Positions 1-37,716 of a stretch of DNA of 64,000 nt are shown here, one piece after another. Location: IMG/VR virus record IMGVR_UViG_3300028992_000036; one strand, 5' to 3'. The notes beneath the pieces were generated by a model, which saw only the letters and a list, made by a program, of their open reading frames with translations, was not told the origin of the DNA and searched no databases. Numbering within the stretch: the first letter of the stretch is position 1; every line of letters starts with the position of its first letter. The position numbers were made by a program, and so were the translations under genes. Source of the DNA: a virus. Lineage: Duplodnaviria > Heunggongvirae > Uroviricota > Caudoviricetes.

Positions 1-79
1 CGAATAAGATATCGCTTAAATGCTTTCTGGCTGTTGTTGAGTCTATTCCCCGCACGTTTGAACTGATGCGCATCGTATT

Positions 80-424: not shown

Positions 425-503
425 GCTCTCTCCCTGTTGTTGTCGGTCGCTCTCATTACTGGCCAAAAAACCTTTCGACCAAAAGTAAATAATGCGACTG
501 GCG

Positions 504-1771: not shown

Positions 1772-1815
1772 AACGCTTTCTCTCCACTTGGGCGGCGAAA
1801 GCCGCCCAATATCGG

Positions 1816-2736
1816 TTATTCCTGTGCGGCAGTAACTTCTACAGTTGCTGTCGCTTTGTGGCTACCATCTTGGGTAGTAACCTCGATTGTGGCAGTACCA
1901 GCCGCAACACCAGTTACAACACCGGTTTCGCTGTCAACCGTTGCAAACTCGGTATTTTTGGATTCCCAAGTAACGGTTTTATTTGTGGCTCCTGCCGGCT
2001 CGACATTTGCTGTCAGCTGAACAGTTTTGTTTGCCTCAACGGTTGTGCTATTTGGGTCGATTTCGACGCCGGTAACAGCCACAACAGGCGCAGTTACTTC
2101 CACCGTTGCAGTTGCCTTTTTGCTGCCATCTTGGGAAACGATCTCAATCGTCGCAGTGCCAACTTCTACACCAGTAACGTTCCCGCTCTGGTCTACCGTT
2201 GCCTTATCTTCATTTTTGGAAGACCAGGTAACAGCCTTATTCGTCGCATTTGACGGCTGAACATTCGCTTTCAGACTGACTGATTTCCCTTTCTCAACAG
2301 ACGTTGATTCTGGCGTTACCGTTACGGATTGAACGGCTACCGGATTTACGGTGACTTCCACTGAAGCGGAAAGCTGGGTTTCCTGATCAGTTGCAGTAAT
2401 TTTTACTTTGCCTGGTGCTACGCCAGTTACTAATCCAGTGCCGTTAACGGTTGCAATTTGGTCATTGGCTGACTTCCAGGTGAATGAACTGGCACTCTTA
2501 CCCATACTAATACCTGCACTAAGTTGAACAGTTTTCCCAACCAAAACTGACGGTGAAGCCGGGGTTATGTTTACGGATTGGGAGAGGGGAACCGCCTGCA
2601 AACAAGCAGATAGCTGACTTTGTTGCCGCTCGGTTAAAGGTTCATCGGAGATAGAATTGGTAAATCCGGCACGGCACATATGCCCCGTAAAATCCGAAAA
2701 TGCCTCTTCCGTAATCTTCATCTTTTGTTCTGGCAT
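1816..2736 (-). CDS. Ig-like (Big_2-type) repeat protein, putative capsid decoration protein
   Basis: Three tandem ~85-aa repeats with the pattern ATVDxxGxVTGVxxGTATIxV typical of bacterial Ig-like group 2 domains; immediately downstream of major capsid gene. Confidence 0.6.
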   Translation of the reverse strand: MPEQKMKITEEAFSDFTGHMCRAGFTNSISDEPLTERQQSQLSACLQAVPLSQSVNITPASPSVLVGKTVQLSAGISMGKSASSFTWKSANDQIATVNGTGLVTGVAPGKVKITATDQETQLSASVEVTVNPVAVQSVTVTPESTSVEKGKSVSLKANVQPSNATNKAVTWSSKNEDKATVDQSGNVTGVEVGTATIEIVSQDGSKKATATVEVTAPVVAVTGVEIDPNSTTVEANKTVQLTANVEPAGATNKTVTWESKNTEFATVDSETGVVTGVAAGTATIEVTTQDGSHKATATVEVTAAQE

Positions 2737-2749
2737 TTCTCGCTCCTAC

Positions 2750-2777
2750 AAAAAGGGTGGGCGTATAGCCCACCCTT
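2750..2777 (-). terminator. stem-loop AAAGGGTGGGC-GTATA-GCCCACCCTTT after the capsid gene (possible bidirectional terminator/attenuator)
   Basis: Perfect 11-bp GC-rich inverted repeat flanked by A/T runs, between capsid stop and decoration gene start. Confidence 0.45.
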
Positions 2778-2809
2778 TAACATAGATAACTACTTATCTA
2801 CTACACTGA

Positions 2810-3685
2810 TTAAATTTTTACATTGGTCAGTGCAGCGATAGCCTTATCGTGCTTATTCGCCAGAGAGCAGTACCACTTCACACGGGTACGTACTGCGTCT
2901 TTGTTCTGTACAGTACCAATGTTTTCAACAACGATACCTGCGTTATCGCCGCCATACAGACCAGTAACGCCGTTCTCTTCTGACAGATGCAAGCAGTAGA
3001 TGCTTGCTTTGCCAGAATCAGTCGGGATGAAGTCGTTGATGATGAACGGAACGCCGTTATGACACAGCATCGGACGACCGAAGTTCTCCATCATGATTTC
3101 AGACGGACCTACGTTTACTGTACGCAGCAGCGCACGGTAAGCACGAAGGTGCTCTGAACGCATCATGATGCAGTCAGCACCAAGATCTTTCACCGCATCG
3201 ACCAGTTCGTCGAACATAGAGAAAGTCATAGATGCACCGGCGATATCGATCTTCTGATCTGCGTGCATCAGGCGTGGAATGCCGTCAAACGCTTTGTTGT
3301 TGGTGCTGGAGTCACCCAAAATCAGATTGCGACGGAACGCACGAGCCAGACCTTTAACTTTCTGACGAACCTGAATAGCCAACTGGTTATTGGTGTCGGC
3401 CATAGTGGTTGCCAGGAATTTATCAACGTCTACGTCACCAGCCAGAATACGCAGTTTCGCAACGCATTCTTCGAAGGTTGCTGCACCTTCCGGGATGGTG
3501 TCGTTAACGTCGATGAAGGTAGCCTCACTCAGCGTTTTTTCACGGTTGTACAGATATGCCTTTGAAGTAATTTTCATAAAAGGCAGGATGGCAAACAGGT
3601 CATCGCGATCGATGATGGTTTCAATCACGCCCTGTTCAAGTTCGTTGTTAGACAGCTTTTCAGCTTCTTCACGCAGTAATGGCAT
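2810..3685 (-). CDS. major capsid protein (putative)
   Basis: 291-aa ORF directly downstream of scaffold and portal genes, followed by strong hairpin; canonical order portal-scaffold-capsid. Confidence 0.6.
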   Translation of the reverse strand: MPLLREEAEKLSNNELEQGVIETIIDRDDLFAILPFMKITSKAYLYNREKTLSEATFIDVNDTIPEGAATFEECVAKLRILAGDVDVDKFLATTMADTNNQLAIQVRQKVKGLARAFRRNLILGDSSTNNKAFDGIPRLMHADQKIDIAGASMTFSMFDELVDAVKDLGADCIMMRSEHLRAYRALLRTVNVGPSEIMMENFGRPMLCHNGVPFIINDFIPTDSGKASIYCLHLSEENGVTGLYGGDNAGIVVENIGTVQNKDAVRTRVKWYCSLANKHDKAIAALTNVKI

Positions 3686-3710
3686 CTATCAATTCCCTTT
3701 GATTTAGATG

Positions 3711-4598
3711 TTACTTAAGTCCAATTTTCCCCAGACCGGAGGCCAACTTATCCATAGTCGACTTGTTCTTCGGTTGGGATATTGTGTAGGTCGATTTGGA
3801 ATGTGAGCCTACACCCTGCTTGGCTTCGCTACGCATCAATGCGTCAGCTTCCGGATCTGCCCGCACAATGCGTTCAATCGCGGATTCAAACGGCAACGGC
3901 TTACCTTCACCGTCAACCAGAACAGCTCGTTCTTTATGACCTGCCGGTTTGTCATAACCCACTACGCTACCGTCTTCACCCACTTCAAAATGAGAACCGT
4001 AGATCACGCGGGCTTTTGCCGGAGTCATCAGAACTTTGTCACGTAGGAAGAGAGAGTTACTGAAGGAAGCGCCCACGGTCATCTCGACTAATTGAGATTT
4101 CAGTGATGCGTTTTCACTTTCCAGTGCTGCATAACGTTCGTCACGCTGTGCCAGCTCTGCCTGGTGTGCTTCGATCATCTGTTTTTTAACAGCATCGAAC
4201 TCACCACGACGCTCCAGTTCAGCTTGCTCCGCCTCACGACGTGCGTTTTCTGCGGCCTGTTCAGCTTCTAAAAGCTGGCGAGCACGCGCCGGGTCGATTT
4301 CACCGTACTGAGCAAGCTGATCGGCCAATGTGCGCTCTTTCTCTTTGCGCTTCATGTTCTCTTTCAGCAGTTCAGCACCAGCTTTCTTGATTTTGCGAAG
4401 TTCGGCCAGTAACTCTTCATGAGTCATGCCAGCGTATTCGTCATCACCCTTCGGCTGCTCTTTTTGTTCACCCTGCTTGTCAGGATCTTGTGTACTCTGC
4501 TCATTATCAGCAGCTACACCGCCAGCGCCCCCACGCTCATGCGCTTCAGCAACATCCATCAGACCACGACGGGCCAAAAGCATTTGCCACAGTTTCAT
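3711..4598 (-). CDS. head scaffolding protein (putative)
   Basis: 295 aa, highly charged with long predicted coiled-coil (AELLKENMKRKEKERTLADQLAQ..., REAEQAELERRGEF...); located between portal and capsid. Confidence 0.55.
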   Translation of the reverse strand: MKLWQMLLARRGLMDVAEAHERGGAGGVAADNEQSTQDPDKQGEQKEQPKGDDEYAGMTHEELLAELRKIKKAGAELLKENMKRKEKERTLADQLAQYGEIDPARARQLLEAEQAAENARREAEQAELERRGEFDAVKKQMIEAHQAELAQRDERYAALESENASLKSQLVEMTVGASFSNSLFLRDKVLMTPAKARVIYGSHFEVGEDGSVVGYDKPAGHKERAVLVDGEGKPLPFESAIERIVRADPEADALMRSEAKQGVGSHSKSTYTISQPKNKSTMDKLASGLGKIGLK

Positions 4599-4619
4599 AA
4601 AAATTCCCTTTGTTACTTA

Positions 4620-6194
4620 TCACTCGTTCTCTTGAGTAGATGAGTCCCCATTCCCTCGGGGTTGATCTTGCCCGCTTTCTTGGGCTGCACCACGATCATA
4701 AGTAAGTACTGACTTATTTTCAAGGGTATTTAGATCATTTTTTGGCGGAAAATTCAAGAGATCTTTATCAAATTCCTTTTTCATCGCCTCAGTAATGTTC
4801 GGGAAAATCTTCTCAATAAGCATTTCCATCTGGTGACGACGTACAGAGTCCGGTGCCTGAAGTAATGACAGTTTCTCGGCAACAGAAAATTCATCTGTAA
4901 GGCCACGAATATCGAAACTTTCTGGATACGCAATTAAAGAGTGGTCTTCGTCCAGATCTACCCCCATCCATTTCGCAACCAGTAGCATGATTTGGCGTTC
5001 AGCCCTTTCCAGACGCTCTGCTTTTGTGACAAGCAAGCTATTTACACGCTGGAAGTCATACATTTTTGCGGCACCAGATGAGTTATCAATTCCCTGTGCG
5101 TTGTCCTGCTTCGTTCGCTCACCAGCGACACCAACTGAATGGTAGATTTCGTTAATCACCGTCTTAATCGTAGTGATGATCATCTGAGCTTGTTTCGGGT
5201 CTGGTGACAAATAAAACGGCTGGTTTCCACCTTCAGAATCGTAGGTGAAGACTCGCTTTGTGCCCATTTCAAGCACTTTAGTGTGGTTTTCATCACCAGG
5301 TAAAAGCGACTGTACCGGTATAGCCAACTGGCTAAATGTCTGATCCTGAATAATGGCATCAAGGTTTGACAGATAGTTTGCAACCGCACGATCAAGATAA
5401 GCGATATCATCGATCAACGATGGGCTGAAATACGGTGATTCACTTTCTCCAATACAATCAACAGGAAACACAGGAACTACGCTGAGATTATGCTCACCGC
5501 TATCCTCTAAAATAACTTTTGCCTGACGGCGACCTGCTCCACCAGCGCCCTTCTTCACTTCCTCACGGAACAGATACCACTCGTTTTGTGTCCACAGACG
5601 ATAACGTTGGTATTCCTGACCTGTAGAAGTAAAAGGATCTGCGTCATCACGAGCGACTTCCACAATTAACGCCCACAACATATTCCCGTCGTCGTCCCAT
5701 GCCACATCCAGCATTTGCTGAGGTGAAATCCAGTAGGCGTAGGCGCGAGCATCTTTCTTTTTCTCGTCAGCTACTGACTCAACATCACCACTCATCGTGC
5801 TATCGACAACAACCCATATGCGACCGTAAATAGACGACTGCAAATCAATAGCGGCCATAAATGAGTCAATAGAGGCATTCTGGCGAGTCGCACGTTTCCA
5901 GAAATTGCGGATCTGCTCTGGTGCCTCTTCGATATTTCTATGAATGTCTTCTTTAAAGAGATATTTGTTGATGAGGTTTACCACCTCACGAGTGTGGTTG
6001 AAGCGATAAGCACGCTCAACTCGCTCCTTAAACTCCTGATCTCCCTCTTTAAAGTAACGAAAGATATTGTCTGTAAACCAACCACGCCCGCCAGCGTAAG
6101 TGCTGGCGAGGAAGTCCCAATGTTCTTTTTTCTTTTCGTATTCCGGGTGGCGTCGCGCCACCAGATCCTTAATTTGTTTGTCGTTCAATTCCAT
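4620..6194 (-). CDS. portal protein (putative)
   Basis: 524-aa ORF immediately downstream of terminase large subunit; size and position typical of portal. Confidence 0.65.
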   Translation of the reverse strand: MELNDKQIKDLVARRHPEYEKKKEHWDFLASTYAGGRGWFTDNIFRYFKEGDQEFKERVERAYRFNHTREVVNLINKYLFKEDIHRNIEEAPEQIRNFWKRATRQNASIDSFMAAIDLQSSIYGRIWVVVDSTMSGDVESVADEKKKDARAYAYWISPQQMLDVAWDDDGNMLWALIVEVARDDADPFTSTGQEYQRYRLWTQNEWYLFREEVKKGAGGAGRRQAKVILEDSGEHNLSVVPVFPVDCIGESESPYFSPSLIDDIAYLDRAVANYLSNLDAIIQDQTFSQLAIPVQSLLPGDENHTKVLEMGTKRVFTYDSEGGNQPFYLSPDPKQAQMIITTIKTVINEIYHSVGVAGERTKQDNAQGIDNSSGAAKMYDFQRVNSLLVTKAERLERAERQIMLLVAKWMGVDLDEDHSLIAYPESFDIRGLTDEFSVAEKLSLLQAPDSVRRHQMEMLIEKIFPNITEAMKKEFDKDLLNFPPKNDLNTLENKSVLTYDRGAAQESGQDQPRGNGDSSTQENE

Positions 6195-6220
6195 TTGAAT
6201 AACCTTAGATAATTACCTAC

Positions 6221-7477
6221 CTATCGAGAACCACCAAGAATAACACGGTTTTTGACTGGATACCTACGATGTACTGGATAGCCCAATGCGTCTGCACTAT
6301 GCTCAATGCCACCTGTCTTATCCATATCTCGTGTTCCAGGCTTGTAGATGACTTTTTCCAGTGAATCAATCAAATGCTTGCACTTCGGATCGATATACAA
6401 CCGGATATCTCCAGATGCGGTCATCAGCATTCGGTTAACAGCATTAACACGATCCGCAATTGGCGGGTGCTTTTTCGAATAATCGACACGTAAGAATCCC
6501 TTCTCTTTGAATATGTCGACGTCAGACTCCCCGCGAGCATGTTGGCGATAAGCACCTGCCGGATCTGGAAATACCGTTATCTGTGATTTCCAGCGCCAGA
6601 AGCGTCTCTCAAGCTCATCACAAACCTCTGCCGTGTTAGAGGAAAAGAGCACCAATTCATCAATTGCCCATAGCTCACCATTTGGCTGAGGTTGCAAAAT
6701 TACTGAAGACATCGGGTCAATGTTGAAGTCCTGCCCTACCCATATAGGCAACCGAGGGTTGAACTGAAGCGGTTTTACATGCACGTTACGATCGAACGGG
6801 TAGTAAACGCGCCCGGACATGTTCTCAAAGCTCGCCAGGTACTCCTGAGCGAACGATTTCGGGTCCATATCGTTCTTAGCAGCTTCAATTTCCGCCGTAG
6901 GCACAAACGGAGAATCGGCAGTTACAAACTGCCAGCTCTTCCACTGTCCCTTTCTTTGCAGCTCTACGTTCTGGCCTATAGTCCACAGTTTGTGAAATTC
7001 CGAGAAACCTTTTGGCGTACCAATGATAAGTGCACCGCCGCGTGTCGATGAAAGAGTAGGTCGTAACACCTTGTACCAGGTGTCAGCCTTCATATCCTGA
7101 AATTCATCAAGCACTACAAAATGCAACGCTACGCCGCGCAGAGTGTCAGGCTTATCAGCACCTTTGAGGGCGATCTCCGAACCGTTCTTCAACACGATTG
7201 TCATCGTGGTGTCGTTCTTTTTCCTAACCCACTTACGAGGCAGAACTTCCTGTAGATCGTCCCACAAAATCTGGCGAGCCATCTGGTAAGTAGGAGCGAC
7301 ATACCAGACCCTTTGCTTTTTTTCCTTTGCCGCCGCACGAATAATAGTGGAGATCGACAACCGGGATTTTCCCCAGCGTCGACCAGCACAAACAACTTTA
7401 AATCGATGCGGAGACTGGAAGACTTTCATCTGTCCAGAATGCAGTTGCACAAGACTGAGCGAGGACGGGATTGCCAT
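6221..7477 (-). CDS. terminase large subunit
   Basis: Walker A VVCAGRRWGKS, Walker B LHFVVLDEFQD, C-terminal nuclease-like acidic motifs; start overlaps small-subunit stop. Confidence 0.8.
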   Translation of the reverse strand: MAIPSSLSLVQLHSGQMKVFQSPHRFKVVCAGRRWGKSRLSISTIIRAAAKEKKQRVWYVAPTYQMARQILWDDLQEVLPRKWVRKKNDTTMTIVLKNGSEIALKGADKPDTLRGVALHFVVLDEFQDMKADTWYKVLRPTLSSTRGGALIIGTPKGFSEFHKLWTIGQNVELQRKGQWKSWQFVTADSPFVPTAEIEAAKNDMDPKSFAQEYLASFENMSGRVYYPFDRNVHVKPLQFNPRLPIWVGQDFNIDPMSSVILQPQPNGELWAIDELVLFSSNTAEVCDELERRFWRWKSQITVFPDPAGAYRQHARGESDVDIFKEKGFLRVDYSKKHPPIADRVNAVNRMLMTASGDIRLYIDPKCKHLIDSLEKVIYKPGTRDMDKTGGIEHSADALGYPVHRRYPVKNRVILGGSR

Positions 7478-8109
7478 TATTCGTCCTCCCCTTCACTTCC
7501 ATCATCTGTCGCATCAAATTCGCTTAGAGCTTCTTCTTCCAACGTCTCAAGCAATTCGTCATCGATGATTTCAGGCTCGTCGTCTTCCTGACGTAATTTC
7601 GCCACCTGGGAAGGCGTAAGCTCACCAAATACCAGATTCGGAATTTCTTCCTCGTCATTTTCCGCATGATCCATGCCCAATGCTTTGGACGAAACTTCAA
7701 AGCATTTTGCAAGGGTATTACTGGCTCTCTGTAAGCTCTTGAGAGAATCCTCAATCGCCCCTAAAGGCTTACCCTCACGTTTGGCCGTAGTGACTTCGAC
7801 CATCACCATCTGCCCCAACGCATACGCCCAGCCGTCATAACGTGTACGACGTTCTTCTATCTTTTCCGCACGGGCTTTAGCGCGAAGCTCTGCGTCAGAT
7901 TTAAGAGACTCACGAACCATCTTCCCAACAGAGTCCGCGCCTTTCTCTAATCCTCGCTTTTTGAAATGTCTGGAGAGTGTTTCACGACGAATGCCGTACT
8001 CTTCCTCCAGCTTTGAGAGTGTATATTCGCCTGACGTCCATTTGGCTTCAGCTTCGGCCCACTCCGCTGGTGTCAGGCGAGTTTTTACCTCGTCTTTTTC
8101 GACCGTCAT
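7477..8109 (-). CDS. terminase small subunit (putative)
   Basis: 210 aa, N-terminal HTH-like region (RRETLSRHFKKRGL), very acidic C-terminus, immediately upstream of and coupled to terminase large subunit. Confidence 0.5.
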   Translation of the reverse strand: MTVEKDEVKTRLTPAEWAEAEAKWTSGEYTLSKLEEEYGIRRETLSRHFKKRGLEKGADSVGKMVRESLKSDAELRAKARAEKIEERRTRYDGWAYALGQMVMVEVTTAKREGKPLGAIEDSLKSLQRASNTLAKCFEVSSKALGMDHAENDEEEIPNLVFGELTPSQVAKLRQEDDEPEIIDDELLETLEEEALSEFDATDDGSEGEDE

Positions 8110-8226
8110 AGATCCCTCTAAAACACACAGAGCGCGTCCATGCGCTCTAAAACAACTTGTTTACTGCATTTTCTAACCAACTTGTTTTCTGGGTTGTTTA
8201 ATTAGGTCTGGGCATGTCTTATTAAG

Positions 8227-8281
8227 CCTGCTTCCGTATATATTTAATAAGTTACTTATTATTTATATATACAGAAGCAGG
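8227..8281. repeat. 55-bp palindrome CCTGCTTCCGTATATA...TATATACAGAAGCAGG, copy 1 of 2
   Basis: 16-bp arms with 1 mismatch around an AT-rich loop; near-identical copy at 33724-33780; embedded in a longer imperfect inverted repeat (about 8205-8310). Confidence 0.55.
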
Positions 8282-8305
8282 TCTTTAAATAAGCTCCCAG
8301 ACCGA

Positions 8306-8572
8306 TTACATCACCAGTAACTTCGCTTTGGCTCGACCTAAAGTGGTTAACCCAAGAGTTCGGCGGTGATAGCGATTGTCACTGCGTTGGCGCGTATGCC
8401 CTTTCTCCACAAGCCCCTTTTTTATCAGAGCGCGAATTGAGAACTGGATACTTTGCTTGGTTGTCTTGTACGGCAAAACTTCAAGCAATTCGTCCAGATC
8501 AAGTAGATAACCTCGCTCATAACCGAGATTGAGCGTTTTGATGATGTCCTTTTGTTTATCGGTTAACGTCAT
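8306..8572 (-). CDS. small basic protein, possible winged-helix DNA-binding regulator
   Basis: 88-aa ORF; basic helix-rich sequence; first gene of the block upstream of the terminase operon. Confidence 0.4.
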   Translation of the reverse strand: MTLTDKQKDIIKTLNLGYERGYLLDLDELLEVLPYKTTKQSIQFSIRALIKKGLVEKGHTRQRSDNRYHRRTLGLTTLGRAKAKLLVM

Positions 8573-8581
8573 GGCAAATCC

Positions 8582-9472
8582 TTATGCCGGTAAAGCAATT
8601 TCTAACGGTTTATCCAAAGGTTGTTTGTCGAATGCCAGCAGTGGCAGCGTGTCAGGCAGTCGACGACCAAAGTCAGGGTTTCGATACACCCCATACAACG
8701 GAGACGTAAAGCTCAGGTTGTGAATGTCCTTGAGCAACTTCACAATGCTGGCCTCGTCCACCAGACTGTCGGCAATGTCCTGAATCGTCGTGCCACGATT
8801 CCGCCCAGCTTTTGCCAGGGAACTGTTCTTGTGGTAGTCCGCCACCAGATCACGCAGTGCACGGCGACGACGAGACTCGCTCATTGCGAACAACTCTTTG
8901 ACGATCGCCTCGTTATCACCCGGGTCGGAACGGAAATGGCGCTGGAATACACGCAGTGCACTTTCATAGCTCTTCGGTCGCTCAGGGCGGATGAACTTAA
9001 ACCCTGCTTTCATGGCGAAGGGATTGTATTTGCTCATCGAGGACTGGATCTCAATGATTGGCCGGTCATGCATCCTGCTAACCAGGTTAATCATTCGATA
9101 AGAGACGCCTACGCCACGATACTGAGTATCCACAACTGAGCGACTGATCACCGCAAAGTTGTTATTCACGTACCGACCCCAGTACTGGTTAGCCACGGTG
9201 GTATTAGTGGTTGGTTTCAACTTAGGAAACATGCGGTGGCGAGGTGCCAACAGTAGTTTCGGGTAAGCCATAACCACGACGCCCACCAGACGGTCATCAA
9301 GTTCGCAGCGATAGTAAGTTGGCGCGAAAGGTTTGCCGTCTGTTTTGTAGTGAAGCGACTTAAGAGCGTGCCAGTCCTCTACAGTTCCCTTTGTAACAGT
9401 CATTCGCTCCAGAAAGTCCAGATGACGCGGAAACTCTTCAGGGCGGTAGCGTTTAATGATGATGTCCGTCAT
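8582..9472 (-). CDS. hypothetical protein with GNAT-like motif (QYRGVGVSYRMINLV)
   Basis: 296-aa ORF; motif resembles acetyltransferase acetyl-CoA binding motif A; stop overlaps start of downstream ATPase. Confidence 0.4.
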   Translation of the reverse strand: MTDIIIKRYRPEEFPRHLDFLERMTVTKGTVEDWHALKSLHYKTDGKPFAPTYYRCELDDRLVGVVVMAYPKLLLAPRHRMFPKLKPTTNTTVANQYWGRYVNNNFAVISRSVVDTQYRGVGVSYRMINLVSRMHDRPIIEIQSSMSKYNPFAMKAGFKFIRPERPKSYESALRVFQRHFRSDPGDNEAIVKELFAMSESRRRRALRDLVADYHKNSSLAKAGRNRGTTIQDIADSLVDEASIVKLLKDIHNLSFTSPLYGVYRNPDFGRRLPDTLPLLAFDKQPLDKPLEIALPA

Positions 9473-19433: not shown

Positions 19434-19789
19434 AAAGCAATCCTTAAACAACATGTTTTCTTGATGGTGTTATTATCGCAATAACGCACAGGCGAAAAAG
19501 GATTTTATTCCGGTGAATATGGTTTTGGCAGTGAGTTTTCAGGTTCAGTACCGAGTATACTTTTTACATTATTCTGATTTAGTGGCCGAAGGTGGCTGGT
19601 GGGCAGAATAATCCTCTCCCCGAAAACCTACTGAAATCGATTGTGACCCGTTGGCTGTCTGGCACAATTACGCTGTAGCTGGGCATTCAGAGGGAATCCA
19701 GCGGTAAGCAAGTCCGCCTACGTGAGCGCCTCTCTTCTTCCCGCACATTACAGGTGGGTAGCCGCAACTCTCCCTCTCGCTATACCGGT

Positions 19790-19950
19790 ACGCCGCCGTT
19801 CCTGAACCGGCATCGAGCCTTTTCCCGAAATCCACACAGGCAACTCGACCGTTTCCCTGAAAACCTCCAGCCGTTCCCCGAAGGCAACCCAGCCGTTTCT
19901 GTAGCGGGATGCAACCTTTTCCCTGTATGGACCGAAGGCTGACCGTAGGG
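19790..19950. repeat. iteron-like array, 6-7 copies of (A/G)GCCGTTTCCCTGAA at about 22-bp spacing
   Basis: Copies at about 19795, 19818, 19848, 19870, 19892, 19915, 19941; overlapping ORFs have non-protein-like composition. Confidence 0.5.
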
Positions 19951-23426: not shown

Positions 23427-25460
23427 TTACTTAACCTGGTGGCCAGGTTTAGCACCAGCATCCGGGCTTAACAGGAAGATATCTTTCCCGCCGGGGCCAG
23501 CAGCCATCACCATGCCTTCAGAGATACCGAAGCGCATTTTACGTGGTGCCAGGTTAGCCACCATAATGGTGTGACGACCAATCAGTGCCTGTGGATCTGG
23601 ATAAGCGGAACGGATGCCTGAGAAGACATTACGCTTTTCACCACCGAGATCCAGCGTCAGGCGAAGCAGTTTGTCAGAACCTTCTACAAACTCTGCGTTT
23701 TCAATCAGCGCCACGCGCAGGTCAACTTTGGCGAAGTCGTCAAAGGTGATAGTTTCCTGAATCGGGTCGTCAGCCAGTGGGCCAGTTACCGGTGCGGCTG
23801 TGGCTTTCACTTCTTCTTTGGATGCTTCCACCAGTGCTTCAACCTGCTTCATATCGATGCGGTTATACAGTGCCTTGAACGGATTCACTTTATGGCCCAG
23901 CAGCGGTTGCTGGATACCATCCCAGGTCAGTTCTGTATTCAGGAATGCTTCTGCACGTTCAGTCAGTTTCGGCAGTACCGGTTTCAGGTACGTCATCAGC
24001 ACGCGGAACAGGTTAATGCCCATAGAGCAAATCGCCTGCAGATCGGCATCGCGTCCTTCCTGCTTTGCCACCACCCACGGAGCCTGTTCATCAACATAGC
24101 GGTTAGCCAGGTCAGCCAGTGCCATGATTTCACGGATAGCTTTGCCAAATTCGCGGCTTTCCCATGCTTCGCCAATCACTTCAGCGGCATCAGTAAAGGT
24201 TTTGTACAGTTGCGGGTCAGCCAGTTCGCTTGCCAGCACGCCGTCAAAACGCTTGTTGATAAAGCCTGCATTACGGGAGGCCAGGTTAACCACTTTGTTA
24301 ACGATATCGGCATTCACACGCTGAACGAAATCTTCCAGGTTGAGATCGATATCATCAATGCGCGAAGAGAGTTTCGCAGTGTAGTAGTAACGCAGGCTGT
24401 CGGCGTCAAAATGATTCAGCCAGGTGCTGGCTTTAATAAAGGTGCCGCGAGACTTGGACATCTTCGCGCCGTTCACCGTCACATAGCCGTGAACAAACAG
24501 GTTGGTCGGCTTGCGGAAGTTGCTGCCTTCCAGCATGGCAGGCCAGAACAGGCTGTGGAAGTAAACGATATCTTTGCCGATGAAGTGGTACAGCTCGGCG
24601 GTGGAGTCTTTCTTCCAGTATTCGTCGAAGCTGGTAGTGTCGCCGCGTTTGTCGCACAGATTCTTGAAGGAACCCATGTAGCCAATCGGCGCGTCCAGCC
24701 AGACGTAGAAGTATTTGCCCGGTGCGTTCGGAATTTCAAAACCGAAGTAAGGTGCGTCACGGGAGATATCCCACTGTTGCAGGCCAGATTCAAACCACTC
24801 CTGCATTTTGTTTGCCACCTGCTCCTGCAACGCACCGCTGCGGGTCCATGCCTGCAACATTTCGCTGAAAGAAGGCAGATCAAAGAAGAAGTGTTCGGAA
24901 TCACGCATTACCGGTGTAGCGCCAGAAACCACTGATTTCGGCTCGATCAGTTCCGTCGGGCTGTATGTCGCGCCGCAGACTTCACAGTTATCGCCGTATT
25001 GATCCGGCGCTTTACATTTCGGGCATGTGCCTTTTACAAAACGGTCCGGCAGGAACATGCCTTTTTCCGGGTCGTACAGCTGAGAGATGGTGCGGTTTTT
25101 AATAAAACCGTTCTCTTTCAGGCGAGTATAGATAAGCTCGGACAACTGACGGTTCTCTTCGCTGTGCGTCGAGTGATAGTTGTCATAGCTGATGTTAAAG
25201 CCTGCGAAATCAGTCTGATGTTCCTGACTCATTTCGCCAATCATCTGTTCCGGTGTGATACCAAGCTGCTGTGCTTTCAGCATGATTGGCGTACCGTGGG
25301 CATCGTCGGCACAGATGAAATTAACCTCGTGGCCGCGCATTCGCTGGTAACGAACCCAGACATCAGCCTGGATGTGCTCCAGCATATGGCCGAGGTGGAT
25401 TGAGCCGTTAGCGTACGGCAGCGCGCACGTCACCAGAATTTTCTTCGCGACTTGGGTCAT
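23427..25460 (-). CDS. metG: methionine--tRNA ligase (start curated to [10 protein letters not shown]; ORF-track N-terminal extension rejected)
   Basis: 677 aa; essentially collinear with E. coli MetG as recalled (class I HLGH motif, KMSKS, C-terminal tRNA-binding domain); hairpin terminator at about 23385-23410. Confidence 0.95.
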
Positions 25461-25617
25461 AGTAGGCATTACTTCTTTGTAGTGAAAAGGGGCTTGATAG
25501 TAACAAAATGGCCTTATGTCTGCCATGTGATAACAGCATTTCTCATAAATGATTAAATGTCGTAGCTGGAGTACACTACAAGGCGACAATTGCGCAAATT
25601 AAAATAAAGGAGACGGG

Positions 25618-26718
25618 ATGAGCGAGTCCAAATCGCCGGATGCCCTGAGAGCAATGGTAGCCGGTACGCTGGCTAATTTTCAGCACCCAACCCTGAAACA
25701 CAACCTGACTACGCTTAAAGCGTTACACCATGTTGCGTTGATGGATGACACACTGCATGTCGAACTAATCATGCCTTTCGTGTGGAATAAGCCTTTTGAA
25801 GACCTGAAAGAGCAATGTAGTGGTGATCTGCTCCGTATCACTGGCGCAAAGGCTATTGACTGGAAGCTGTCGTACAACATTGCCACGCTTAAGCGCGTCA
25901 AAAACCAACCAGGCATTAATGGCGTTAAGAACATTATCGCCGTCAGCTCAGGCAAGGGCGGCGTGGGTAAATCCTCCACGGCGGTAAACCTGGCACTGGC
26001 GTTGGCTGCTGAAGGTGCGAAAGTTGGTATTTTGGATGCCGATATCTATGGTCCATCAATTCCAACCATGCTGGGCGCGGAAAACCAACGTCCAACCTCA
26101 CCGGACGGTACTCACATGGCACCTATCATGTCTCATGGCCTGGCAACCAACTCTATTGGTTATCTGGTCACCGACGACAATGCAATGGTGTGGCGTGGAC
26201 CGATGGCCAGCAAGGCGCTGATGCAGATGTTGCAGGAAACACTGTGGCCTGATCTGGACTATCTCGTTCTCGATATGCCACCGGGCACTGGTGATATTCA
26301 ATTGACGCTGGCGCAGAACATTCCTGTAACTGGTGCGGTTGTGGTAACTACGCCGCAAGACATCGCGCTGATCGATGCGAAGAAAGGCATTGTGATGTTC
26401 GAAAAAGTCGAAGTGCCGGTACTGGGTATCGTTGAAAACATGAGTGTGCATATTTGCAGTAACTGCGGTCATCACGAGCCAATTTTTGGCACCGGTGGCG
26501 CACAGAAACTGGCCGAGAAATACAACACGCAGTTGTTAGGCCAAATGCCACTTCATATCTCTCTTCGTGAAGATCTGGATAACGGAACACCAACCGTTAT
26601 TAGTCGTCCAGATAGTGAATTTACGGCTATTTATCGTGACCTCGCAGATCGCGTTGCTGCCCAAATGTATTGGCAAGGTGAAGTAATACCTGGCGAAATC
26701 GCATTCCGCGCAGTGTGA
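25618..26718 (+). CDS. mrp: Fe-S cluster carrier ATPase Mrp/ApbC
   Basis: P-loop [11 protein letters not shown], Mrp signature and CxxC motif; near-identical to E. coli Mrp as recalled; divergent from metG as in the E. coli chromosome. Confidence 0.9.
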
Positions 26719-27016
26719 TAAAAAGGTGGTGCTTTTGCCGTTACGCACCACCCCGTCAGTAGCTGAACAGGAGGGACAGCTGATAGAAACAGAAGCCACT
26801 GGAGCACCTCAAAAACACCATCATACACTAAATCAGTAAGTTGGCAGCATCACCGAGCGCCAGCGGCGAACATATGAGCTTCGGAAATACTAGACATTCT
26901 TAACTCCGTTGTTTTCTAGTTGTGGTTATTTTCACAAATAAGAAAAGATAGAAAACAATTTATTTAAGGCCACAACTTATGGCCTTTATTTATTCATGCC
27001 GAAGGATTTGTAGCGT

Positions 27017-28162: not shown

Positions 28163-29848
28163 TCATTTAACGCGTTTGAAAACGTATACGCTGACTGTGA
28201 TCCCTGTGTCTTCAAACTCGTTGGTAAACGACTTCCCTCTGGCATAAACGTAATTATCCATCGTCATCCAGTCCAGTATTGGCGCAGTGCCCGGCAATAC
28301 TGCTACAAGACGCCCGCCGACTTTCAGATGCCCCAGCGCAGCCAGCGTGTGCTCTCTATGACGACCAAGCGAGTACGGCGGGTTCATAACGATTTTGTCG
28401 AACTGATAACCTGCGTTGTCCTCAGACCACTTTATGAAGTCGCAGCAAATCGTGTTCGTATACCCTTTTCCACGCAGGATATCAGCGAAGAGAGGTGCGA
28501 TTTCTATGCAGGTAACATCTTCCAGATCGGCGTCAATATAGGCCAGAAGATCCCCACGTCCGGCTTGAGGCTCCAACAGCTTCTCACCAGGCTTCAATTC
28601 AGTGGCTCTTGCAACGTACTCAGCAATCAAGCGTGGGGTAGGGTAGAACTGGTGTGATTTTGTATCCGGTATTAAACCGGTAGCCACAATCGTATTTAGC
28701 GTATGGCCGATGTCATACGGGAACTGCCAGTGCTTTTTCTCCTGCACGCCGCCAATGAAGCTCAGTGTGCGCTCAAGCTCTTCCACCTGCGACTTCTGGA
28801 GAGCTGAATCAGAGAAGTACCATACACCTTTGTCTTTGCTCAATCGCCCGTCACGAAGCGCAGTGCGAACCGGCACGGAGATCGTCTTCTGGATTAAACC
28901 GAACTGCTTTGGTGCCCGTGTTTTTGGCGCAGTTCGGCATGGCGCGGGGATTGCAGCAGGCATACTGTAAGCCAGCACCTCATTCAACTTCCAGGCCACG
29001 TCAGGATGTATTTCAAAGTGAACGTTGCCGTTCTTGAACATCTTCACGCGCATCAGATTTCCATCGACGTTCATCCAGTCACCGGTCTGGCAGTCGTTTG
29101 CCCGATACGCAGCTGATAGCACCTCAGCAGTGCGGTTGATGGTAATAAATTCTTTGTGCGCGAAGAAATGAAGCAAGACACGCAGATCGTCGATGTAGTC
29201 CTCTTTGCGATAGTTCACGCTAACGCTGTCCCGCCAGAAATCAGAAATGCAGTCAGCGATTATCAGCCGCTCGCTGAAACCATTTGTCTTATTTGTCTTG
29301 TGCACAGGACTCAGCGCCTTAAACAAGCCATACACGCGCTCAGAGAGATATTTGTGCCTGTCATTCAGCAAATTAAGCATCGTGGGTATGACCGTTTCTG
29401 CTTTGAACTCCGGTACACCAACGAACTCTTTAACCTTCATCTGGTAGCCGGTTCTGTCAGTTTTGATGACTTCCTGTTTGCCCTCTATAAACTGCTCGCG
29501 CCACTCATCTCGACGGGAAGCTGGCATGATCAGCAAAACGTTAGTCATGTCCGTGACCTTCCTCCAGTACTCGGCCCAAATATTCTGTTTCACCCATTCC
29601 AGATCGACTTTATCCAACCAACCTCGATTTAAACGCGAGCGATCTTCATCTGGTCGATGGTTTAGTTTCAGCAGGCGATTAATCATGTTGTGGCGTTCGT
29701 CGCCATAAACGAAGTTGTGAACCTGATACATGAAGGCGATCTCTTTCTCGCACTCGGCCACAATTTCGTGGATAACGTTCATTTCCTGACGATAATCGAT
29801 AGCAGTGTTTGAGCTGGCATCGTCGATGATGGAAAGGGCTGTATTCAT
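28163..29848 (-). CDS. putative N6-adenine DNA methyltransferase with large N-terminal domain of unknown function
   Basis: C-terminal 170 aa carry FYPTP, motif I LLEPQAGRGDL and motif IV NPPYS; N-terminal about 390 aa has no recognisable motifs. Confidence 0.6.
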   Translation of the reverse strand: MNTALSIIDDASSNTAIDYRQEMNVIHEIVAECEKEIAFMYQVHNFVYGDERHNMINRLLKLNHRPDEDRSRLNRGWLDKVDLEWVKQNIWAEYWRKVTDMTNVLLIMPASRRDEWREQFIEGKQEVIKTDRTGYQMKVKEFVGVPEFKAETVIPTMLNLLNDRHKYLSERVYGLFKALSPVHKTNKTNGFSERLIIADCISDFWRDSVSVNYRKEDYIDDLRVLLHFFAHKEFITINRTAEVLSAAYRANDCQTGDWMNVDGNLMRVKMFKNGNVHFEIHPDVAWKLNEVLAYSMPAAIPAPCRTAPKTRAPKQFGLIQKTISVPVRTALRDGRLSKDKGVWYFSDSALQKSQVEELERTLSFIGGVQEKKHWQFPYDIGHTLNTIVATGLIPDTKSHQFYPTPRLIAEYVARATELKPGEKLLEPQAGRGDLLAYIDADLEDVTCIEIAPLFADILRGKGYTNTICCDFIKWSEDNAGYQFDKIVMNPPYSLGRHREHTLAALGHLKVGGRLVAVLPGTAPILDWMTMDNYVYARGKSFTNEFEDTGITVSVYVFKRVK

Positions 29849-29989
29849 AATTACACCATTAAATAATTTGTTTTCTGATTGGTGTAATTATCGCAAACTT
29901 GAAAAGGCATAAAAGCTGCATTCATAGGCGTTACAGCAGATTTAAGGCGTAAAAATGGGGGCTGTCGCCCCCTGTCGACTGGTGCTGTA

Positions 29990-30556: not shown

Positions 30557-30853
30557 GTGTTTTTCCTAATGCTTAAACAAGTTGTTTTCTTATTGTCTTT
30601 ATTGTGATGTGGCATAAAAGGGGAGCAAGCTAAACGTAAAGGTGCAAACTCTCTATTTCGGTCAACGAAACACAAGGGCCATTTGGCCCTTGTCATTAAC
30701 ACTTTGCTTTACGAACTAACGGATAAGCGAAGTAGATCGCCAAACCAATGAGGACGCCATCAGAAATGACAGACATCATCTTTCCCGTAAAATCCACCAA
30801 CACCGCCATCACCAGAAGAGCAATGACGATCACAAGCCGGAATCTCTCAAGCA

Positions 30854-31279
30854 TTAGAGATAAGCATCCAGTGACAACTGAAGCGCCTGGGCGATCTTTT
30901 TCAGTGCCTGCTCTTCTTGTTCACCAATGCCGTCCTGATCGGCAATATCAAGGCACAGACACAGAACATCGACCGCCTCTGGAGTACCCGCAATATCAGA
31001 CAGCTCACGAATAGCCTGTGCATTAGCAGAACGAGGGGACGCTTCGTAACGAGCACGGATATTGGCGCTCATTTGGGCAATTTCACCAGCAAACGGAGAA
31101 AACGCAGGCAGAGCTGCAATTGTCTTCTCAAGAATGGCAATTTCTTTTGCGTCACATGTGCCGTCGGCATAGGAGATCATGTACGCGCCCCACACGGTGG
31201 CCTCAACCGCATCACGGTTCTCCATTTTTTTGACTTCGATAACAGCTTTACGAGTTTTCTTTTTGAAGAAACCTAACAT
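30854..31279 (-). CDS. TerB-like (tellurite-resistance TerB fold) protein
   Basis: 141 aa; paired ADG-x-x-D-x-x-E and DIADQDGIGEQEEQALKKIAQAL motifs typical of TerB family; AAAAGGAAAG Shine-Dalgarno. Confidence 0.5.
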   Translation of the reverse strand: MLGFFKKKTRKAVIEVKKMENRDAVEATVWGAYMISYADGTCDAKEIAILEKTIAALPAFSPFAGEIAQMSANIRARYEASPRSANAQAIRELSDIAGTPEAVDVLCLCLDIADQDGIGEQEEQALKKIAQALQLSLDAYL

Positions 31280-33802: not shown

Positions 33803-34396
33803 CTAAGCAGCCTTCTTTGATGGTCTTTTTTTCCTGATCACATTCGCAGGATCATACCCTCCCAGACTTTTCATGACGTCCAAAGGGATCTTGCTTATAG
33901 AGTGCCCAGCGTCCTGACAGAATCCTCGAAAAACAACGAGCATACTGCCACCTGGGTTGATGTTTACTTCTACCTGACCCAGATTTACGTCAGGCTCGAC
34001 AAACGCTACGCGGCCACCAGACAGAATAATCGTCTCATTCGCACACTCTGTTGCACGCTCATACCACTTTGTATCTAGGGATTGAGGAATTAGCATCACT
34101 GTTGTAACTCCGCGAGCCTGCTCACGTATAGCCGCATCAATCCAGGGGTAGATTTTGGAGTAGGGTGGATTGAGGAAGGCAATTGTACCTGGCTGTCCCC
34201 ATTCAGATTTCAAAGCATCACGCTCAACGCCTATGAAATTAGGCAGCTTTGCATTGTCCTTGTTGCAGGCAACGTCAACATCAAATGTCACTCCAAGATA
34301 ACGTTGAATGGCAGAAAACAGCCAGTCAGGTGTTCTCCAGAGGTCACGAAGAGAGTTGTCACGCTTTCGCTGTTTGATTTTTTCGGCTGCAATCAT
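33803..34396 (-). CDS. phage-type DNA N6-adenine methyltransferase (Dam-like)
   Basis: FLNPPYS catalytic motif in a compact 197-aa protein. Confidence 0.7.
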   Translation of the reverse strand: MIAAEKIKQRKRDNSLRDLWRTPDWLFSAIQRYLGVTFDVDVACNKDNAKLPNFIGVERDALKSEWGQPGTIAFLNPPYSKIYPWIDAAIREQARGVTTVMLIPQSLDTKWYERATECANETIILSGGRVAFVEPDVNLGQVEVNINPGGSMLVVFRGFCQDAGHSISKIPLDVMKSLGGYDPANVIRKKRPSKKAA

Positions 34397-36595: not shown

Positions 36596-37240
36596 CTAAT
36601 GAACGGTCACTCGGCCACAGAACCGGTTTTCTATCTTTTCTACAGCGTTATCTAGCATTCTCATCACTGATCTGGCTCTTGCTTCAACCGTGCGATATCG
36701 GTTGGAAACGACGAAGGTTTGCAGATCTCCCCTTTGCGGATGCAGGTGAATTTTTGTCAGTTCCCCGCACATCAACGCATCAATACGAGCGACATACAGA
36801 CGGTCTAATGATGCTCGTTGTGATCGCAAGTAATCTCGCTCTGAGAGAGCGACTCCCGGGCGTAAGCCAGCAATGGCGTTAAAGTTTGAAATAGCAGTTT
36901 TGTGGCAAAACTTTTCGATATCGAGGGCTAACTCAATACACCGATCTTCATTTGTATGGCCGACCAAATCCAACGTGTAGGCCATAACATCAGCAGGTGT
37001 GCGATCGATAACAAAGCCTTCAACACCACGCGTAAGTAGCTCTATATGCTTTGCTATTTCCATTTGAATCTGAAGCCGCTCATATAGAGGCATAGAATCA
37101 CCTACTCGAACACCGAGGCGGCTCATCAAACTTCCGACACCAGCATCCACGTAAGGGATTCCGTAATGTTTGTCGATATATTTAGCCAGGGTTGTTTTCC
37201 CACTGCCCTGAGCACCAGTGATCCCAATCCGGTAATCCAT
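36596..37240 (-). CDS. P-loop NTPase, putative (deoxy)nucleotide kinase
   Basis: N-terminal GITGAQGSGKTTLAKYI Walker A typical of small nucleotide kinases; sits in the nucleotide-metabolism operon. Confidence 0.5.
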   Translation of the reverse strand: MDYRIGITGAQGSGKTTLAKYIDKHYGIPYVDAGVGSLMSRLGVRVGDSMPLYERLQIQMEIAKHIELLTRGVEGFVIDRTPADVMAYTLDLVGHTNEDRCIELALDIEKFCHKTAISNFNAIAGLRPGVALSERDYLRSQRASLDRLYVARIDALMCGELTKIHLHPQRGDLQTFVVSNRYRTVEARARSVMRMLDNAVEKIENRFCGRVTVH

Positions 37241-37716
37241 TACGACCTTCTGTATACGATCTGCGAAAAGCCAGGCTCTTCCTCGCTGGCTCGTTGGGTA
37301 TAAGCTGTTTCAACAGGCACAAAGCCTAAGTTACGCATCATGCTTGCCGGGAAGAATGCATCGGCGTTTGGTACATCAATGCCGATGTGGGAGAGCCAAA
37401 TCTCTTCAACATGCGGCATGAATAGCGAGTAAATTTGTTCCCCGCCAATCACCCACACAGGCTCTGGTAATCGCAACACATCATCCACACCAGCAGGGTA
37501 GAATCCATTTGGTACAAAGCCATGAGAGCGCGTCAAAACGAGGTTATGACGCTCTGGAAGAGGGCGTTTGAGACTTTCCATCGTTTTACGCCCCATAACG
37601 ACAGTGGCGTTTTTGGTGAGTCTCTTAAATAGCTTCAGATCGGTAGAACAACGCCAGGGGAGTTCATTCGCTATGCCGATCTCATAGTTACGGCCAACAG
37701 CAGCGATCATCTTCAT
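37240..37716 (-). CDS. dihydrofolate reductase
   Basis: MKMIAAVGRNYEIGIANELPWRCSTDLKLFKRLTKNATVVMGRKTMES parallels the DHFR N-terminus (IGxxxxxPW ... VMGRKT). Confidence 0.8.
   Translation of the reverse strand: MKMIAAVGRNYEIGIANELPWRCSTDLKLFKRLTKNATVVMGRKTMESLKRPLPERHNLVLTRSHGFVPNGFYPAGVDDVLRLPEPVWVIGGEQIYSLFMPHVEEIWLSHIGIDVPNADAFFPASMMRNLGFVPVETAYTQRASEEEPGFSQIVYRRS

What the first reader, a model, noticed from the sequence alone, without database searches (positions are those of the whole stretch)
28163..29848. Large protein combining an unknown 390-aa N-terminal region with a compact N6-adenine methyltransferase domain
Only the last about 170 aa carry methyltransferase motifs (FYPTP, EPQAGRGDL, NPPYS), too small to contain a target-recognition domain, so the N-terminal region probably supplies DNA recognition or another activity. 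Phage-plasmids use such fusions for anti-restriction, either by self-methylation or as capsid-injected protective proteins. Together with the separate Dam-like methyltransferase at 33803-34396, this suggests layered methylation-based counter-defence.
Basis: partly seen in the sequence, partly recalled or inferred. Interest (0 to 1): 0.5.

Follow-up and report, generated by a model that had tools for sequence, protein, structure and literature searches.

The report
Phage-plasmid orphan adenine methyltransferase, DUF4942-fused
This is a real, intact gene of an SSU5-type phage-plasmid that most likely methylates DNA adenines, joining a widespread mobile-element domain of unknown function (DUF4942) to a minimal methyltransferase; databases already list the family as a predicted methylase, but I found no published experimental test of it.

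Summary
Window 28163-29848 (-) is an intact 561-aa ORF. Its last ~166 aa form a complete minimal Rossmann methyltransferase with invariant YPTP, EPxAGxG and NPP(Y/F) motifs; the first ~395 aa carry no methyltransferase motifs.

The window is an E. coli SSU5/pHCM2-type phage-plasmid. The gene is the orthologue of SSU5_095 ('DNA methyltransferase', PHROG 6263, Pfam DUF4942), so the call is not new.

What I add:
- **Two modules.** DUF4942 (res 88-303) also occurs alone as a 281-aa protein in CP4-type islands; that locus is found in about 75% of complete E. coli genomes. A basic linker plus catalytic domain (res 304-561) recombines as a unit, and its catalytic part occurs alone as IncF leading-region YdcA.
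- **Fixed architecture.** The two-module arrangement is near-obligate within the family (132 of 135 full-length representatives).
- **Constraint.** Every segment is under purifying selection; DUF4942 is the most constrained (dN/dS 0.02-0.04).
- **Context.** The gene always sits in early or DNA-metabolism blocks, often beside other orphan methylases, and never beside a nuclease.

Best reading: an intracellular orphan m6A DNA methyltransferase that protects the element from restriction. A capsid-injected, DarB-like role is not supported. Specificity and the role of DUF4942 remain unknown.

The parts
28163..29848 (-). Whole CDS, 561 aa plus stop: DUF4942-methyltransferase, orthologue of SSU5_095
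   Evidence: ORF. 100% identical to an annotated plasmid CDS. 92% identical to SSU5 'DNA methyltransferase'. PHROG 6263 E 1e-298.
29588..29848 (-). Residues 1-87: variable N-terminal helical segment; the first 17 residues are low confidence
   Evidence: AF2 helices 20-48 and 50-62, pLDDT below 50 for residues 1-17. Least conserved part. dN/dS 0.07-0.17.
28940..29587 (-). Residues 88-303: DUF4942 module, the most constrained part, with a fold unlike any solved structure
28664..28939 (-). Residues 304-395: small basic alpha/beta linker domain (pI 9.6), the most variable in the family; candidate specificity or DNA-contact element
   Evidence: Secondary structure. pI and charge. 22-37% identity in distant homologues, and it switches together with the catalytic domain in mosaics P0044/P0045. 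PHROG 9133 matches 328-560 as one unit.
28163..28663 (-). Residues 396-561 plus stop: minimal class-I SAM methyltransferase domain, TaqI/EcoKI (gamma) type
28634..28648 (-). FYPTP (residues 401-405): the TP motif capping the helix before the catalytic core
   Evidence: Q400 F401 Y402 P403 P405 are invariant. Aligns with the ETP of M.TaqI. Feature described for EcoKI/TaqI-like methylases in PMC5512222.
28550..28573 (-). EPQAGRGD (residues 426-433): motif I, SAM binding
   Evidence: P427 A429 G430 invariant; E426 and G432 at least 90% conserved. Present in 129 of 135 representatives.
28373..28384 (-). NPPY (residues 489-492): motif IV, catalytic adenine pocket
   Evidence: N489 P490 P491 invariant. 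NPP[FYW] or SPPF in 132 of 135 representatives.
29887..29895 (-). TGCGATAAT: conserved extended -10-like element 39 nt upstream of the ATG; possible own promoter
   Evidence: Sequence. The TGn(G/A)A(T/A)AAT pattern is conserved in Cyrano, SSU5 and Klebsiella pJN2-26 upstream regions. The consensus scan did not call it, so it is inferred only.
29957..29972 (-). Terminator-like GC hairpin plus T-run after the upstream gene, separating it from this CDS
   Evidence: the hairpin is conserved in SSU5.
33803..34396 (-). Second orphan methylase of the same gene block: phage Dam family
   Evidence: PF05869 E 2.9e-38. RefSeq 'phage N-6-adenine-methyltransferase'.

Best explanation
The ORF encodes an orphan (no partner nuclease) SAM-dependent N6-adenine DNA methyltransferase of an SSU5/pHCM2-type phage-plasmid.

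**Shown**
- The protein has two separable modules.
- Module A is DUF4942 (residues 88-303, preceded by variable helices 1-87). It also exists as a free-standing 281-aa protein in E. coli CP4-type islands.
- Module B (residues 304-561) is a small basic alpha/beta domain followed by a 166-aa Rossmann catalytic domain with the TaqI/EcoKI-type signature: a TP-capped helix, motif I, then NPPY.
- Every segment is under purifying selection.
- The two-module architecture is fixed across the family.
- The gene lies in the early/DNA-metabolism block, and no restriction nuclease is annotated among its neighbours.

**Inferred**
- The catalytic domain binds SAM through EPQAGRGD, E449 and D470-F471, and flips the target adenine into the NPPY pocket.
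- Because it lacks the usual C-terminal recognition domain, DNA binding comes from the upstream domains.
- The variable basic domain 304-395, and perhaps the variable loop 521-540, would set sequence preference.
- The highly constrained DUF4942 would provide a conserved, non-sequence-specific function such as clamping or targeting the DNA.
- The enzyme acts inside the cell on replicating phage-plasmid DNA, alongside the Dam-type enzyme at 33803-34396. Plasmid copies and packaged genomes would then carry m6A marks that block a subset of restriction systems in the next host.
For: - **Intact, constrained ORF:**
- **Motif conservation:**
- **TP motif:** aligns with M.TaqI, a feature described for EcoKI/TaqI-like methylases.
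- **Profile matches:** PADLOC Type II MTase and mad2 profiles; PHROG families labelled DNA methyltransferase.
- **Obligate architecture:**
- **Modularity:** stand-alone DUF4942; stand-alone YdcA; mosaic breakpoint near residue 305.
- **Context:** DNA-metabolism block in the window; nin/early-right region of lambdoid prophages next to PF01555 and C5 methylases; near Dam on IncHI2 plasmids.
- **Precedent:** orphan methylases of phages and plasmid leading regions protect against restriction (PMC11541004; PMC7736820).
Against: - I found no published experimental data for any family member: only four papers mention DUF4942, none functionally.
- Pfam and NCBIfam DNA-methylase models are all below their thresholds.
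- DUF4942 is more conserved than the catalytic domain, which is unlike a typical variable recognition domain.
- DUF4942 also functions somewhere without any methylase, so its role may not be DNA recognition at all.
- Expression timing and target sequence are unknown.
- Related plasmid orphan methylases are silent in ordinary growth.
Confidence: 0.6

Rival explanations
1. It is a DNA adenine methyltransferase, but its main role is regulatory or housekeeping for the element (replication timing, packaging-site recognition, gene expression, as Dam methylation does for P1) rather than anti-restriction.
For: It sits among replication and nucleotide-metabolism genes. P1's record annotates Dam sites in the regulatory regions of cre and kilA. 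The very strong conservation of DUF4942 would fit one fixed target rather than an arms race.
Against: The element already carries a Dam-type enzyme. The linker and catalytic module is swapped between lineages, which looks like diversifying exchange. In one Klebsiella plasmid the gene is truncated to 71 aa with a type I R-M gene immediately downstream, so the full-length gene is not indispensable there.
Confidence: 0.15
2. DUF4942 carries an independent, non-methylase activity (for example binding or inhibiting a host defence or repair factor, or an unrecognised enzymatic function). The protein would then be a bifunctional counter-defence effector, with the methylase using only the 304-395 domain for DNA contact.
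For: DUF4942 exists alone in CP4-type islands; that locus is found in 4099 of 5426 E. coli genomes. Stand-alone forms also occur in phages (PHROG 38825; BFVD hits). It is the most constrained segment, with many invariant polar residues. A recombination boundary lies exactly at its C-terminal end. The fold is unlike any solved structure.
Against: Within the sub-family closest to this protein the two modules are virtually never separated (132 of 135), which argues for one integrated function. The candidate metal-binding residues H281 and D283 are not invariant. No catalytic signature was found.
Confidence: 0.15
3. It is a virion-packaged, injected protector like P1 DarB, methylating the incoming genome in cis.
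For: The catalytic domain matches segments of giant phage protein families of 770-3900 profile positions. It shares the TP, motif I and NPPY layout that PMC5512222 describes for DarB-like methylases.
Against: No SF2 helicase domain. BLASTP against P1 DarB is not significant (E 0.16-0.26). The gene is far from the structural genes and lies in early regions in all contexts examined.
Confidence: 0.04
4. It methylates RNA (rRNA or tRNA m6A) or protein rather than DNA, modifying host translation.
Against: Sequence identity in the structural alignments is higher to DNA enzymes (CamA 27%, M.TaqI 25%) than to METTL5 (16%). The TP-capped helix is the DNA EcoKI/TaqI signature. The significant profile hits are to Type II DNA methylases and mad2. 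The gene co-locates with other DNA methylases.
Confidence: 0.05

Closest known systems
Salmonella phage SSU5 gp095 / pHCM2 'YdiA' / phage Cyrano CYRAN_90 (PHROG 6263; NCBI 'DUF4942 domain-containing protein')
   Same: [quoted passage not shown]
   Different: Nothing of substance. I found no published experimental study of them; they carry only predicted names.
Gamma-class N6-adenine DNA methyltransferases M.TaqI, M.BseCI, CamA
   Different: Those enzymes carry a large C-terminal recognition domain. Here the chain ends right after the catalytic fold, and a 395-aa unrelated region lies upstream. Pfam N6_Mtase scores below its threshold.
YdcA of IncF plasmid leading regions (187 aa, 'putative adenine-specific DNA methylase')
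   Same: 31% identity (E 2e-14) over residues 400-517: the same minimal catalytic domain, also on a mobile element among anti-defence genes.
   Different: YdcA is free-standing, with no DUF4942. Its upstream neighbour YdbA is DUF3560, unrelated to DUF4942. I found no paper characterising it.
Stand-alone DUF4942 protein of E. coli CP4/SRL/LEE-type islands (L0010 family, WP_000065752.1, 281 aa)
   Same: Homologous to residues 88-303 (hhalign probability 99.3%, E 7e-21). Also on a mobile element.
   Different: No methylase domain. It sits after CbtA-DUF5983-DUF957. Several residues invariant in the fused family differ: H183 becomes Y, T185 becomes N, R223 becomes E.
P1 DarB and other polyvalent-protein methylase-helicase modules
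   Same: Same motif layout; a role in counter-restriction is proposed.
   Different: DarB is 2255 aa, fused to an SF2 helicase, and a component of the virion head. There is no significant pairwise similarity and the genomic context differs.
M.EcoGIX / M.BceJIII single-strand-specific plasmid methylases
   Same: Orphan m6A methylases of mobile elements that protect the incoming DNA.
   Different: Those are beta-class DPPY enzymes. The IncF leading-region methyltransferase I scanned as their presumed relative is PF01555. The window protein is gamma-order NPPY with no PF01555 match.

Membership tests
TaqI/EcoKI-like (gamma) N6-adenine DNA methyltransferase | SAM-binding motif I ((D/E)PxxGxG) lies N-terminal to catalytic motif IV | tested here: met
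   EPQAGRGD at 426-433 precedes NPPY at 489-492.
TaqI/EcoKI-like (gamma) N6-adenine DNA methyltransferase | Motif IV is NPP(Y/F) | tested here: met
   N489 P490 P491 are invariant in 30 homologues. 132 of 135 representatives have NPP[FYW] or SPPF.
TaqI/EcoKI-like (gamma) N6-adenine DNA methyltransferase | A conserved helix before the core, capped by a TP motif (PMC5512222) | tested here: met
   YPTP at 402-405 followed by helix 406-416. It aligns with M.TaqI ETP. Definition taken.
TaqI/EcoKI-like (gamma) N6-adenine DNA methyltransferase | Class-I Rossmann methyltransferase fold | tested here: met
TaqI/EcoKI-like (gamma) N6-adenine DNA methyltransferase | Target-recognition domain C-terminal to the catalytic domain, or a separate HsdS subunit | tested here: not met
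   The chain ends at residue 561, directly after the last strand. No hsdS or hsdR is annotated nearby.
TaqI/EcoKI-like (gamma) N6-adenine DNA methyltransferase | Scores above the Pfam N6_Mtase (PF02384) gathering threshold | tested here: not met
   13.7 bits against a cut-off of 20.4.
TaqI/EcoKI-like (gamma) N6-adenine DNA methyltransferase | Transfers methyl to N6 of adenine in DNA | not testable with these tools
   Needs a methylome or an enzyme assay.
Pfam DUF4942 (PF13708) | Score above the gathering threshold | tested here: met
   72.2 bits against 25, residues 140-295. Profile comparison extends the match to residues 88-303.
PHROG 6263 ('DNA methyltransferase') | Full-length match to the family profile | tested here: met
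   E 1e-298, residues 1-561 against profile positions 1-548 of 548.
DarB-type polyvalent methylase-helicase (virion-delivered) | Methylase fused to an SF2/SNF2 helicase and an LPD36 domain | tested here: not met
   No helicase family hit. The protein ends after the methylase.
DarB-type polyvalent methylase-helicase (virion-delivered) | Significant sequence similarity to P1 DarB | tested here: not met
   Best BLASTP E-values 0.16 and 0.26; only the motif-level YTP...LEPSAGTG stretch aligns.
DarB-type polyvalent methylase-helicase (virion-delivered) | The protein is packaged in the virion | not testable with these tools
   Needs virion proteomics. Gene position argues against it.
M.EcoGIX/M.BceJIII single-strand-specific methylases | Beta-class enzyme with DPPY motif (PF01555-type) | tested here: not met
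   No PF01555 hit and gamma motif order. The IncF methyltransferase scanned as their presumed relative is PF01555.
Restriction-modification or Type IIG system | A nuclease domain in the protein or an adjacent restriction gene | tested here: not met
   No nuclease family hit. Neighbours in the window and in three prophage or plasmid contexts include no restriction gene.
Phage Dam (PF05869), for the neighbouring ORF 33803-34396 | Score above the gathering threshold | tested here: met
   131.6 bits against 28.1.

The most novel reading that the evidence does not exclude
DUF4942 is an autonomous mobile-element module with its own DNA-directed or counter-defence function, built on a fold not seen in solved structures. 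Its near-obligate fusion to a minimal methylase in phages and plasmids would then be a 'Rosetta-stone' clue. It would mean that the stand-alone DUF4942 proteins, whose locus is found in about three quarters of E. coli genomes next to the CbtA toxin cluster, also act on DNA. They could, for example, act as a new kind of recognition or recruiting subunit for methylases, or as a protector of incoming DNA.
Probability: 0.25. Interest if true: 0.55.

Novelty: new member of a known kind. Interest (0 to 1): 0.3.

Why it matters
**Element biology.** If the enzyme is active, it is one of two orphan adenine methylases that could widen the range of restricting hosts an SSU5-type phage-plasmid can enter. 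These elements are common in E. coli, Salmonella and Klebsiella, and phage-plasmids as a group often carry resistance genes.

**Enzymology.** The family would show how a minimal gamma-type catalytic domain works with an upstream module instead of the usual C-terminal recognition domain.

**A common unknown domain.** The link to the stand-alone DUF4942 protein gives a testable handle on a very common E. coli island gene of unknown function.

None of this overturns current ideas. Orphan methylases on mobile elements are well known.

Tried and rejected
1. **Split-gene idea.** I asked whether IncF ydbA plus ydcA is a split version of this protein. Rejected: YdbA is DUF3560 and shows no similarity.
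4. **DarB kinship.** Pairwise BLASTP was not significant.
5. **M.EcoGIX kinship.** It belongs to a different class: beta, DPPY.
6. **Literature on DUF4942, the SSU5, pHCM2 or Cyrano methylase, and ydcA.** No functional data found.
7. **The O157 Sakai L0010 copy as a stand-alone DUF4942 example.** It is truncated just upstream of an ISEc8 copy, to 113 aa. I used the BL21 copy instead.
8. **Promoter scan.** It did not call a promoter for the gene. The extended -10-like element rests only on conservation.

Full report
**What the window is.** The 4-kb stretch around the finding is 100% identical to E. coli plasmid pM160133_p3 (113 kb). It is found almost only on plasmids of about 105-115 kb: 255 of 257 places. 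The protein is 98% identical to that of phage Cyrano and 92% identical to that of Salmonella phage SSU5. The window is therefore an SSU5/pHCM2-type phage-plasmid. Head, portal and terminase genes lie at window 1-9445. A long minus-strand block at 27017-49429 holds nrdAB, thymidylate synthase, dfr, a 3'-5' exonuclease, RNase HI, a phage Dam and the gene in question.

**The observation.** The ORF at 28163-29848 (-) is intact, starts with ATG and encodes 561 aa.
- The quoted motifs sit at residues 401-405 (FYPTP), 426-434 (EPQAGRGDL) and 489-493 (NPPYS).
- Q400, F401, Y402, P403, P405, P427, A429, G430, D484, N489, P490 and P491 are invariant in 30 homologues down to 34% identity.
- AlphaFold2 (pLDDT 82, pTM 0.70) predicts residues 396-561 as a complete seven-stranded class-I fold that ends at the C-terminus.
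The one amendment is that part of the N-terminal region is a known Pfam family, DUF4942 (E 5.8e-20), and the whole protein matches PHROG 6263 'DNA methyltransferase'.

**Is the catalytic domain a DNA adenine methylase?**
- phmmer finds M.TaqI as the best PDB sequence, only weakly (E about 0.08-0.1). That alignment runs from the TP motif to NPPY.
- PMC5512222 describes a TP-capped helix plus NPP(Y/F) as the hallmark of EcoKI/TaqI-like adenine methylases of mobile elements.
- PADLOC Type II methylase profiles (E 3e-10) and the MADS mad2 methylase (E 2e-15) match the same stretch.
- Pfam and NCBIfam models stay below their thresholds. The domain is thus a divergent member, and the fold alone cannot exclude an RNA target. 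I rate DNA as much more likely.

**Anatomy of the N-terminal 395 residues.**
- In BFVD only uncharacterised phage proteins of 250-310 aa resemble it.
- Three lines of evidence divide the protein at about residue 303.
  - Per-segment identities show mosaics. P0044 and P0045 are 93-95% identical to the window protein in residues 121-305, but only about 50% identical in 306-561, where they resemble the Klebsiella type.
  - PHROG 9133, a family with a 1259-position profile, matches residues 328-560 as one unit.
  - A free-standing 281-aa DUF4942 protein of E. coli aligns to residues 88-303 and ends at the AIP motif (hhalign probability 99.3%, E 7e-21).
- That free-standing gene follows CbtA-DUF5983-DUF957 in CP4-type islands. 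Its locus is present in 4099 of 5426 complete E. coli genomes.
- The catalytic domain alone also exists as YdcA (187 aa, 31% identity) in IncF leading regions.

**Constraint.**
- dN/dS against SSU5 is 0.086 overall: 0.044 for DUF4942, 0.112 for the linker domain and 0.090 for the catalytic domain. Against the Klebsiella orthologue the values are 0.052, 0.021, 0.064 and 0.059.
- DUF4942 is thus the most constrained part. Residues 1-80, 306-395 and 521-540 vary most across the family. The 306-395 segment is basic, with pI 9.6.

**Is the architecture a one-off fusion?** No.
- Searching 1.84 billion representatives with residues 1-395 alone returns 604 clusters at E up to 0.001. Nearly all of the best 150 are 500-580 aa.
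- Among the 135 full-length ones, 132 have NPP[FYW] or SPPF near the C-terminus and 129 have motif I.
- Full-length homologues occur on about 2100 plasmid records, including IncHI2 plasmids at about 31% identity.
- They occur in only 39 of 50,697 phage records: SSU5-likes, Aeromonas Popoffvirus, and temperate Pseudomonas, Marinomonas and Vibrio phages.

**Context and role.**
- In Aeromonas phage 56 the gene lies between ant and ninG.
- In Variovorax and an enterobacterial prophage it lies in the early-right operon, next to PF01555 or C5 methylases.
- On IncHI2 plasmids it lies near a Dam gene.
- No restriction gene is annotated beside it in any of these contexts.
- In the window it has a terminator-like hairpin upstream and a conserved extended -10-like element.
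- This matches the known pattern of orphan protective methylases.
- The capsid-injected alternative lacks support: no helicase domain, no significant similarity to DarB, and a position in early-gene blocks.

**Mechanism proposed.** The domains, motifs, constraint and context are shown. The rest is inferred.
- SAM is bound by motif I, E449 and D470-F471, and the target adenine is flipped into the NPPY pocket.
- DNA is held by the upstream domains.
- The variable basic 304-395 domain, which recombines together with the catalytic domain, is the likelier specificity element.
- DUF4942 would provide a conserved function, such as a clamp or targeting role, or possibly an independent activity.
- I put 0.6 on 'intracellular orphan m6A DNA methylase protecting the element from restriction'.

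**Novelty.** An identical protein sequence is already annotated on public plasmid records, the closest 90% cluster has 1384 members, and the SSU5 orthologue is already named a DNA methyltransferase. I found no experimental study: only four papers mention DUF4942, none functionally. The gene is thus an uncharacterised member of a known kind. The modest new points are the module boundaries, the link to the very common stand-alone DUF4942 protein, and the absence of any structural precedent for that module.

Noticed in passing
L012:5283-6128 (E. coli BL21 chromosome); also L011:10088-10429 (O157 Sakai, truncated): A stand-alone 281-aa DUF4942 protein closes the CbtA-DUF5983-DUF957 gene string of CP4/LEE-type islands. 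The locus is present in 4099 of 5426 complete E. coli genomes, with a median of 2 copies. It is homologous to residues 88-303 of the window protein, and I found no report of its function.
   Followed up: partly
L002:5506-7477 (IncF plasmid pN12CTX-TC-COL-1 leading region): YdbA (453 aa, DUF3560) lies directly upstream of YdcA, a 187-aa minimal methylase 31% identical to the window catalytic domain. The pair sits between an antirestriction gene and ssb/psiB. A second, PF01555 methyltransferase (presumably the M.EcoGIX-type enzyme) lies 5 kb upstream.
   Followed up: partly
L015:4001-7391 (K. pneumoniae plasmid OW969859.1): In this IncFIB plasmid the homologous gene is cut down to a 71-aa stub, and a Type I restriction enzyme R gene lies immediately downstream. 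The locus may be an exchange hot spot. PHROG 25525 (profile length 71) and tblastn hits that cover only residues 1-53 point the same way.
   Followed up: partly
window 29849-29889: A perfect 9-bp inverted repeat, AATTACACC / GGTGTAATT, spans from the -10-like element to the start codon. Phage Cyrano keeps it through a compensatory A-T to G-C change, but SSU5 and Klebsiella pJN2-26 do not. It may be an operator or a hairpin that masks the ribosome-binding site, or it may be chance (rough expectation about 0.04 for this interval).
   Followed up: partly
window 23427-26799: Host-like metG (methionine-tRNA ligase) and apbC/mrp genes are carried on the phage-plasmid, followed by a 75-bp IS1 transposase remnant. 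Phage Cyrano has the same pair.
   Followed up: no
window 37240-37716: The phage dihydrofolate reductase in the nucleotide-metabolism block is annotated by RefSeq as trimethoprim-resistant DfrA51.
   Followed up: no
proteins P0044, P0045 (alignment A1): Mosaic homologues: 93-95% identical to the window protein in residues 121-305, but about 50% identical in 306-561, where they match the Klebsiella-type sequence. This indicates recombination inside the gene at the module boundary.
   Followed up: yes
window 30696-31279: A TerB-domain protein (141 aa) and a 52-aa DUF3927 protein, annotated in Cyrano as P1 TciA- and TciB-like, lie just upstream in the same strand block.
   Followed up: no
window 19451-19846: RefSeq marks this hypothetical gene as a pseudogene with an internal stop on the identical plasmid.
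   Followed up: no
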